A stretch of DNA of 64,000 nt from Escherichia coli (GTDB lineage Bacteria; Pseudomonadota; Gammaproteobacteria; Enterobacterales; Enterobacteriaceae). This document shows positions 46,969 through 47,114 of the stretch, one piece after another. The position numbers were made by a program. The stretch lies in assembly GCF_016026235.1 (NCBI RefSeq), contig NZ_CP065613.1; one strand, written 5' to 3'. The first letter of the stretch is position 1, and every line of letters begins with the position of its first letter.

Positions 46969-47114
46969 TCAGGCTTACCGTAGGCCGGATCAGGCGTTCA
47001 CGCCGCATCCGGCAAAGTGTTAACCGTGTACAGAGTCAAAAAGGCGCTCGGTCGGTCCCCTCGCCCCTCTGGGGAGAGGGTTAGGGTGAGGGGAAAACCG
47101 TGTCAGCAATATCA

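What the first reader, a model, noticed from the sequence alone, without database searches (positions are those of the whole stretch)
47041..47100. GC-rich imperfect palindrome beside REP elements between pstB and pstA
cccctcgcccctctggggagagggttagggtgagggg differs in composition from the neighbouring REP palindromes and resembles the box C class of E. coli intergenic repeats. Stacked repeats inside the pst operon may affect mRNA stability or the stoichiometry of pstB relative to pstAC.
Basis: seen in the sequence. Interest (0 to 1): 0.25.

Follow-up and report, generated by a model that had tools for sequence, protein, structure and literature searches.

The report
Known BoxC repeat inserted in pst operon
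The GC-rich palindrome between pstA and pstB is a copy of a known E. coli intergenic repeat (BoxC, also called PIT or TMECO). It sits in a 92-bp insertion that only about 39% of E. coli strains carry, so it is an ordinary, dispensable repeat rather than a built-in regulator of the phosphate transporter.

Summary
CCCCTCGCCCCTCTGGGGAGAGGGTTAGGGTGAGGG G lies at window 47057-47093, in the 182-bp pstA-pstB spacer, next to two REP palindromes (46950-47013).

It matches the published BoxC/PIT/TMECO consensus. It is the copy listed as TMECO no. 19 of E. coli K-12 MG1655 by Holder et al. 2015 (NAR 43:10126). The family has about 18-23 copies per genome.

What I add:
- The motif sits in a 92-bp block present in 2098 of 5426 complete E. 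coli genomes and absent from the rest.
- E. albertii, E. whittamii, an Escherichia cryptic-clade strain and two Salmonella subspecies all have the empty site, so the block is a derived insertion.
- It is bounded by a perfect 8-bp direct repeat (AACCGTGT). It abuts the pstA stop codon, changing TAA to TGA, and doubles the spacer from 90 to 182 bp.

No promoter or intrinsic terminator pattern is present. The mRNA (C-rich strand) can form a hairpin of about -27 kcal/mol. An effect on pst mRNA stability is possible but untested, and it cannot be required. Other loci gave mixed results on clean insertion, so a mobile-element (MITE-like) nature is suggested but not established.

Already known; low interest.

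The parts
47058..47092 (+). BoxC / PIT / TMECO core, type 'A mm': C-block CCCTCGCCC, loop, G-block GGGAGAGGG, TTA, G-block GGGTGAGGG.
   Evidence: A regex for the published consensus matches only here in the window. The sequence is identical to TMECO no. 19 in Table 1 of PMC4666352.
47030..47113 (+). The 84-bp inserted element. It comprises a left arm (47030-47057, ACAGAGTCAAAAAGGCGCTCGGTCGGTC), the core, and a shortened right arm (47093-47113, GGAAAACCGTGTCAGCAATATC).
   Evidence: It is absent from E. coli 55989, PA45B and STEC306 and from all outgroups. Other genomic copies match 47030-47095/97. The arms are homologous to those of other copies.
47022..47029 (+). Left copy of the 8-bp direct repeat AACCGTGT, present once in empty sites.
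   Evidence: Alignment of filled and empty alleles.
47114..47121 (+). Right copy of the 8-bp direct repeat AACCGTGT. It overlaps the last pstA codons (CAC GGT) and the first base of the stop codon.
47096..47103 (+). Third, internal copy of AACCGTGT inside the element's right arm. Seven of its eight bases (AACCGTG) are native to the family's right arm.
   Evidence: The sequence itself. An independent copy downstream of argE has GGGGAAAACCGTGC.
47112..47114 (-). pstA stop codon TGA, formed by the T of the target repeat plus GA from the inserted element. Empty alleles use TAA, and the PstA C-terminus (...KNKHG) is unchanged.
46980..47013 (+). REP palindrome GTAGGCCGGATCAGGCGTTCACGCCGCATCCGGC. It belongs to an old REP pair that is present in all Escherichia and Salmonella loci examined.
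   Evidence: Inverted repeat I1, sub-threshold naRNA4 hit, outgroup alignment.
46950..46974 (+). Second REP-type palindrome, GCCTGATGCACTTCGCGAATCAGGC.
   Evidence: The sequence, naRNA4 hit on the - strand at 46949-47014, and conservation in outgroups.
47112..48002 (-). pstA coding sequence (context).
   Evidence: ORF list and RefSeq annotation of matching records.
46156..46929 (-). pstB coding sequence (context).
   Evidence: ORF list and RefSeq annotation of matching records.

Best explanation
The motif is the core of one copy of the BoxC / PIT / TMECO intergenic repeat family. It is carried on an 84-bp non-coding element that was inserted, within the E. coli lineage, immediately after the pstA coding sequence.

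Shown:
- The insertion duplicated (or used) the 8-bp target AACCGTGT.
- It replaced the TAA stop of pstA by TGA without changing the protein.
- It pushed the older REP pair 92 bp downstream.

Inferred:
- The element is a passenger, selfish or neutral DNA, and not a component the pst operon depends on.
- It is co-transcribed in pstSCAB-phoU mRNA as the C-rich strand, where it can add a stable imperfect hairpin to the pstA-pstB spacer. The G-rich template strand is the one reported to fold into a hairpin or purine-motif triplex when single-stranded.
- Any effect on pst expression is at most a modest change in mRNA structure or decay.
- How the element was inserted (transposase acting in trans, or microhomology/template-switch copying from another copy) is not resolved.
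For: Identity:
- The consensus regex matches at 47058-47092. The sequence and position equal TMECO no. 19.
- The 36-nt core is identical to the copy downstream of fabI.
- The family is multi-copy: median 18 and up to 31 places per genome, and 23 strict copies in MG1655.

Polymorphism:
- The full spacer is present in 2098 of 5426 genomes.
- Only two spacer lengths, 90 and 182 bp, were seen among contigs encoding the identical PstB.
- The indel is exactly 92 bp, with 8-bp direct repeats.

Polarity:
- E. albertii, E. whittamii, Escherichia sp. MOD1-EC7003 and Salmonella enterica subsp. diarizonae and arizonae all have the empty site with a single ACACGGTT.

Element boundaries:
- Other copies align to 47030-47095/97.
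- The arms are shared with the fimH-gntP, ygfF-gcvP, alx-sstT, argE, rluF and adk copies.
- A second clean case is the 132-bp rluF-yjbD indel, with a 10-bp direct repeat that has one mismatch.

Dispensability and lack of signals:
- The element is absent from most strains and all outgroups.
- No promoter or terminator pattern is found.
- The literature reports no promoter or terminator activity, and no triplex was detected in vivo.
- Filled alleles are nearly uniform: 2072 genomes are at least 99% identical.

Structure:
- RNA hairpin -27.5 kcal/mol, z = -2.9. DNA hairpin -14.1 kcal/mol.
Against: - No expression data were examined, so a real effect on pstA/pstB mRNA decay or PstA translation termination cannot be excluded. 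The hairpin starts about 11-18 nt after the stop codon.
- The pst copy lacks the family's usual left terminus and has a shortened right arm. A simple one-step transposition of an intact element therefore does not fully explain it.
- The third internal AACCGTGT copy is unexplained.
- Four other loci (fimH-gntP, adk-hemH, yihR-yihS, argE) show replacement or complex divergence rather than clean insertion.
- Eighty metagenomic copies show only a weak excess of flanking direct repeats.
- The allele is frequent (39%) and found in distinct lineages (K-12, B, O157:H7). This could reflect either neutrality with recombination or some benefit.
Confidence: 0.85

Rival explanations
1. The element is a functional cis-acting RNA structure of the pst operon. 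Stacked with the REPs, it would act as a 3'-exonuclease barrier, processing site or partial terminator that sets the PstSCA: PstB-PhoU ratio.
For: The mRNA-sense strand folds into a stable hairpin (-27.5 kcal/mol, z = -2.9). The whole spacer folds better than shuffles (z = -3.6). REP elements are known from the literature (my own knowledge, not re-read here) to stabilise upstream mRNA and, when close to a stop codon, to affect translation. The insertion moves the REP from about 6 nt to about 98 nt after the pstA stop codon.
Against: The element is absent from about 61% of complete E. coli genomes and from all outgroups, which share an otherwise conserved spacer. No terminator-like site is found. 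Family members occur in either orientation relative to genes, and earlier experiments found no promoter or terminator activity. There is no Rfam family match.
Confidence: 0.08
2. The element is ancestral to the spacer, and the empty alleles arose by repeated precise deletion between the 8-bp direct repeats. This would fit the triplex/hairpin-induced replication slippage proposed by Holder et al. as 'genomic instability'.
For: Deletion between direct repeats that flank a strong hairpin is a well-known process. Holder et al. report more variability around TMECO loci. Other loci show messy alleles.
Against: All five outgroup loci (three non-coli Escherichia, two Salmonella subspecies) have the empty site. 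Holder et al. report the family as absent from Salmonella. Only two discrete alleles were seen, and filled alleles are at least 99% identical in 2072 genomes. Secondary loss in some E. coli lineages is still possible, but it is not the origin of the polymorphism.
Confidence: 0.04
3. The motif is a chance GC-rich palindrome, or a variant REP belonging to the neighbouring REP cluster (BIME).
For: It lies 40 bp from two REPs and is palindromic.
Against: Zero matches are expected by chance. It has no similarity to the REPs, and the Rfam REP-derived model stops at 47025. It matches a different, well-defined family, with identical 36-nt cores at other loci. The REPs are present in outgroups without it.
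Confidence: 0.01

Closest known systems
BoxC repeat (E. coli, 1990s) = PIT element (Hoyne/Maher 2000) = TMECO triplex motif (Holder et al. 2015, PMC4666352)
   Same: It matches the consensus exactly, is intergenic and multi-copy, and is this very locus (TMECO no. 19, type A with one mismatch). Its 36-nt core is the same as the copy downstream of fabI.
   Different: Nothing differs in the core. What I add is locus-specific:
- The core lies in an 84-bp unit with family-typical arms.
- The unit is a derived 92-bp insertion with 8-bp direct repeats.
- It is present in 39% of complete E. coli genomes.

Holder et al. left insertion versus deletion open and interpreted the variability as instability.
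REP / BIME elements
   Same: Both are short extragenic palindromes at gene 3' ends and inside operons, are co-transcribed, and form hairpins. Two REPs lie immediately beside this element.
   Different: The sequence is unrelated. BoxC has three G/C blocks rather than a simple REP stem. The REP pair here is ancient (Escherichia and Salmonella), whereas the BoxC unit is a recent insertion.
Bacterial MITEs (for example ERIC/IRU or Correia elements)
   Same: It is small (under 200 bp), non-coding, multi-copy and varies in presence between strains. Paired copies form a long imperfect palindrome of about 195 bp whose ends look like inverted repeats (AGAyTGmTGACAAA). Direct repeats of 8-10 bp flank the two clean insertions.
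   Different: No partner transposase is known. The pst copy lacks the left terminus. Several loci are not clean insertions. A family-wide excess of flanking repeats is weak. Across metagenomes only the core plus a 5' GT(C/T) is conserved.
Rho-independent terminators
   Same: A GC-rich hairpin located after a stop codon.
   Different: No U-tract follows the stem and the scan found none. pstB and phoU must be transcribed through it.

Membership tests
BoxC / PIT / TMECO | Consensus CCCTCNCCC-N3-6-GGGNGAGGG-N3-GGGNGAGGG[G/T/C/-] | tested here: met
   The regex matches at 47058-47092. The consensus is quoted from PMC4666352. Subtype A (TTA second loop) with one mismatch.
BoxC / PIT / TMECO | Multi-copy and dispersed in the genome | tested here: met
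   Median 18 and up to 31 BLAST places per E. coli genome. Twenty-three strict copies are listed for MG1655, of which I read 13 type-A copies (plus three type-B partners at the paired loci) from NC_000913.3.
BoxC / PIT / TMECO | Intergenic location | tested here: met
   The core lies between the pstA stop codon (47112) and the pstB start (46929).
BoxC / PIT / TMECO | Already catalogued as a member | tested here: met
   TMECO no. 19 at 3,908,495-3,908,530 lies inside the spacer 3,908,367-3,908,548 of NC_000913.3.
BoxC / PIT / TMECO | The G-rich strand forms a purine-motif intrastrand triplex | not testable with these tools
   Only Watson-Crick hairpins can be predicted here. Holder et al. report CD/NMR evidence for type 'A mm' oligonucleotides in vitro and no protection in vivo.
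REP / BIME | REP consensus palindrome | tested here: not met
   The REP-derived Rfam model naRNA4 aligns to 46949-47025 only and does not reach the motif. The motif has no sequence similarity to the adjacent REPs.
MITE | Target-site duplication flanking the element | tested here: inconclusive
   The repeat is perfect and 8 bp at pst, and 10 bp with one mismatch at rluF-yjbD. None is seen at fimH-gntP or adk-hemH, which show replacement. In metagenome copies there is only a weak excess: 9 observed against 4.0 expected.
MITE | Terminal inverted repeats | tested here: inconclusive
   The consensus left end AGACTGATGACAAA and the reverse complement of the right end AGATTGCTGACAAA agree at 12 of 14 positions, by eye. 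An automated per-locus left/right comparison found nothing consistent. The pst copy lacks the left end.
MITE | Partner transposase with matching ends | not tested
   None was identified. Holder et al. found no mobility genes near the copies.
Intrinsic terminator | GC-rich stem followed directly by a U-run | tested here: not met
   Zero terminator-like sites in 46700-47300 on either strand.

The most novel reading that the evidence does not exclude
BoxC/TMECO units may be insertion-competent mobile elements, with the core carried on a MITE-like unit. On this reading, the strain-to-strain variability at TMECO loci mainly reflects gain of elements, with 8-10-bp target duplications, rather than triplex-induced instability.

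The pst locus would be the cleanest documented example: outgroup-polarised, with exact junctions. The match between the target (AACCGTGT) and a native 7-nt stretch of the element's right arm hints at homology-guided or template-switch insertion.
Probability: 0.3. Interest if true: 0.45.

Novelty: already known. Interest (0 to 1): 0.15.

Why it matters
For the pst operon it matters little. The phosphate transporter works with or without the element in most E. coli and in all relatives.

The modest value is for repeat biology. This locus gives an outgroup-polarised, base-exact example showing that a BoxC/TMECO copy was gained, not lost. Holder et al. 2015 left that question explicitly open. The locus also supplies a natural pair of alleles (90-bp and 182-bp spacers) for testing whether such elements alter operon mRNA fate.

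Tried and rejected
- **Rfam scan of 46000-48000 at E up to 10.** It gave only sub-threshold REP-derived naRNA4 hits beside the motif and a spurious Antizyme_FSE hit, so no RNA family applies.
- **Promoter and terminator scan.** Nothing found.
- **Search for further copies in the 64-kb window.** None.
- **RefSeq annotation of K-12.** No repeat feature is listed at the locus.
- **Automated search for terminal inverted repeats around 12 copies.** No consistent signal. The inverted-repeat idea rests only on consensus comparison.
- **Filled/empty comparisons at other loci.** fimH-gntP, yihR-yihS, argE and adk-hemH proved to be replacements or complex, so they do not support a uniform target-duplication model. 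aaeR-tldD and zntA-tusA are near-fixed and uninformative. frlR-yhfS is confounded by presence or absence of the whole region.
- **An IS10-like reading of the ends (CTGATGA / CTGAGA).** Considered and dropped, because the rluF junctions do not fit it.
- **Flanking-repeat statistics on 80 metagenomic copies.** Only a weak excess.
- **Literature searches for pst-operon REP/mRNA work and for REP effects on translation.** Nothing usable in the held library. The first BoxC search was too unspecific.

Full report
**Observation.** The string CCCCTCGCCCCTCTGGGGAGAGGGTTAGGGTGAGGGG occurs once in the window, at 47057-47093 on the + strand. No match is expected by chance.

It is an imperfect nested palindrome. 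The outer arms are TCCCCTCGCCC / GGGTGAGGGGA (47056-66 / 47084-94, 91% complementary), and there is an inner CCCTCT-GGGG-AGAGGG stem.

It lies in the 182-bp spacer between pstA (47112-48002) and pstB (46156-46929). Both genes are on the - strand, in the order pstS-pstC-pstA-pstB-phoU. The gene names come from RefSeq annotation of identical DNA.

Two REP-type palindromes lie at 46950-46974 and 46980-47013. They draw sub-threshold hits to the REP-derived Rfam model naRNA4, which stop at 47025 and do not cover the motif.

**What it is.** The library paper Holder et al. 2015 (PMC4666352) treats this motif under three names. It was BoxC in the 1990s, PIT element in Hoyne/Maher 2000, and TMECO in their own work. 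Their consensus is CCCTCNCCC-N3-6-GGGNGAGGG-N3-GGGNGAGGG.

- A regex for that consensus matches the window only at 47058-47092.
- Their Table 1 lists 23 copies in MG1655. No. 19 is the same 36-nt sequence, type 'A mm', at 3,908,495-3,908,530.
- In NC_000913.3, pstB ends at 3,908,366 and pstA begins at 3,908,549. The catalogued copy is therefore this locus.
- The copy downstream of fabI has the identical 36-nt core. From my own memory, fabI (then envM) is the gene where BoxC was first noticed.
- BLAST of the region against 5,426 complete E. coli genomes gives a median of 18 and up to 31 places per genome.

**A presence/absence polymorphism, and its polarity.** Only 2098 of 5426 genomes carry the full spacer. 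In the others the match stops at 47029.

Alignment of the window and K-12 against strains 55989, PA45B and STEC306 shows one clean 92-bp indel. It is bounded by the perfect 8-bp direct repeat AACCGTGT (47022-29 and 47114-21), which the short allele has once. Contigs encoding the identical PstB show only two spacer lengths, 90 and 182 bp.

To polarise the indel I scanned one genome per species with a degenerate pattern for the PstB N-terminus.

- Empty site: E. albertii, E. whittamii, Escherichia sp. MOD1-EC7003, Salmonella enterica subsp. diarizonae and arizonae, and one E. coli.
- Filled site: E. coli E69 and Escherichia sp. E1V33.

The block is therefore a derived insertion in the E. coli lineage. 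[quoted passage not shown]'.

The insertion abuts the pstA reading frame. The repeat supplies CAC GGT T, and the element supplies GA. The stop codon thus changes from TAA to TGA, and PstA still ends ...KNKHG.

Filled alleles are almost uniform, at least 99% identical in 2072 genomes. This locus shows no sign of local hypervariability.

**Anatomy of the inserted unit.** Other genomic copies align to 47030-47095/97, not only to the core. I read 13 type-A copies from K-12 using the published coordinates and three more from other strains.

- **Left arm.** It is shared across copies, with consensus (C)AGACTGATGACAAAGTCaAAAAaGgCGCaCGGACaGTC directly before CCCTC.
- **Right arm of single copies.** It reads GAAAACCGTGCCCAyACTGAC...GTTTGTCAGCAATCTCA.
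- **Paired copies.** The same right arm follows the second, inverted type-B core in the paired ygfF-gcvP copy (38 of 48 identical by eye). Single copies therefore look like paired elements of about 195 bp that have lost the spacer and second core.
- **The pst copy.** It starts at ACAGAGTC, so it lacks the usual left terminus. Its right arm is shortened to GAAAACCGTG|TCAGCAATATC.
- **The third AACCGTGT (47096-47103).** It is mostly native to the family arm, since the argE copy has GAAAACCGTGC. The element thus carries a 7-nt match to its own target. I cannot explain this; chance is roughly 1%.

**Is the family mobile?** The evidence is mixed.

- rluF-yjbD is a second clean case. It has a 132-bp indel, filled in 1773 genomes, with the 10-bp repeat ATTAACGCCT/ATTAGCGCCT. 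The element's left end there is exactly the consensus CAGACTGATGA.
- fimH-gntP has 81 bp in place of 12 bp.
- adk-hemH has about 154 bp in place of about 50 unrelated bp.
- yihR-yihS and argE are complex.
- An automated test for terminal inverted repeats found nothing consistent.

In 80 usable copies, from contigs of 37-73% G+C, the flanks are unrelated. Only GT(C/T) immediately 5' of the core is conserved, with the T at -2 carrying 1.8 bits. Flanking direct repeats are only weakly enriched, 9 observed against 4.0 expected within 12 nt.

A MITE-like nature is a reasonable hypothesis, but it is not shown. No partner enzyme is known.

**How it most likely works here.** It is shown that the element is non-coding, was gained recently, and is dispensable. 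It is absent from about 61% of E. coli genomes and from all relatives examined.

- No sigma-70 promoter or intrinsic terminator pattern occurs in 46700-47300.
- Earlier experiments, as summarised by Holder et al., found no promoter or terminator activity for these elements. In vivo footprinting gave no evidence of a stable triplex.

It is inferred that the element is co-transcribed in pst mRNA as the C-rich strand. There it can form an imperfect hairpin (-27.5 kcal/mol, z = -2.9) starting about 11-18 nt after the pstA stop codon. It also moves the REP pair from about 6 nt to about 98 nt after that stop.

From general knowledge of REP elements, either change could slightly alter 3'-exonuclease protection or termination-proximal ribosome behaviour. 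Nothing here tests that. I put the passenger reading at about 0.85 and a real regulatory role at about 0.08.

**Novelty and verdict.** The motif, its family, its triplex-forming potential, its copy-number variation and this very copy are all published. The additions are locus-specific: insertion polarity, exact junctions, stop-codon replacement and allele frequency, plus a tentative picture of the longer carrier unit. The finding is correct but ordinary, and interest is low.

Noticed in passing
L035 (Escherichia sp. MOD1-EC7003) and L030 (Salmonella enterica subsp. diarizonae), pstA-pstB spacer; corresponds to window ~46950-46980: These two outgroups carry extra REP-like sequence between the two conserved REPs of the spacer. 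REP copy number at this site therefore also varies between lineages, independently of the BoxC insertion.
   Followed up: no
L047-L126 (metagenome contigs): The type-A core CCCTCTCCC-N-GGGAGAGGGTTAGGGTGAGGG is found with identical G/C blocks (only the first loop varies) in contigs of 37-73% G+C with unrelated flanks. Only a 5' GT(C/T) is conserved, with the T at -2 carrying 1.8 bits. Such strict conservation of a ~40-nt unit across very different genomes is unexplained.
   Followed up: partly
L068, L090, L095, L109, L111 (metagenome contigs), ~40 nt 5' of the core: A subset of the metagenomic copies shares a left arm, tCAGGTCGGCGTAnCTC...CGGTCAGTC. Its length and ends (CAG...CGGnCAGTC) resemble the E. 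coli left arm, hinting that the longer carrier unit also exists outside E. coli.
   Followed up: no
L041/L044 versus L042 (rluF-yjbD): In the empty allele the convergent genes rluF and yjbD abut directly. The filled allele has three copies of the target sequence (ATTAACGCC, inverted GGCGTTGAT, ATTAGCGCC). This parallels the three AACCGTGT copies at pst and may be a signature of the insertion mechanism.
   Followed up: partly
L044 (rluF-yjbD copy in strain AS19-RrmA-): This copy has a degenerate core (GGGAAAAGGG) that fails the strict TMECO pattern. Counts based on the published regex, such as 23 in MG1655, therefore underestimate the family.
   Followed up: no
K-12 loci L009 (aaeR-tldD), L011 (zntA-tusA), L014 (fimH-gntP), L007 (adk-hemH), L012 (yihR-yihS), L041 (rluF-yjbD), L040 (argE): Copies differ greatly in how many of the 5426 genomes have a place covering at least 80% of a ~360-436-bp query around each copy. 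The counts are 5415, 5148, 4818, 2914, 2334, 1773 and 285, in the order listed. They are not all occupancy figures. For fimH-gntP the empty alleles also reach 80-81% coverage, so that count overestimates. For yihR-yihS part of the difference is absence of the whole region. Total places per genome range from 1 to 31. This suggests a spread of insertion ages or lineage-specific expansion.
   Followed up: partly
L033 (Escherichia sp. E1V33): The contig ends inside the BoxC element of the pstA-pstB spacer. This is an assembly break at the repeat, and a reminder that draft genomes under-report such copies.
   Followed up: no
window 46961-46968 and 47128-47135: The 8-bp palindrome TTCGCGAA occurs twice, 159 bp apart: once inside a REP and once inside the pstA coding end. 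K-12 has variants at both positions (TTCGCTAA and TTCGCAAA), so this is probably chance.
   Followed up: no
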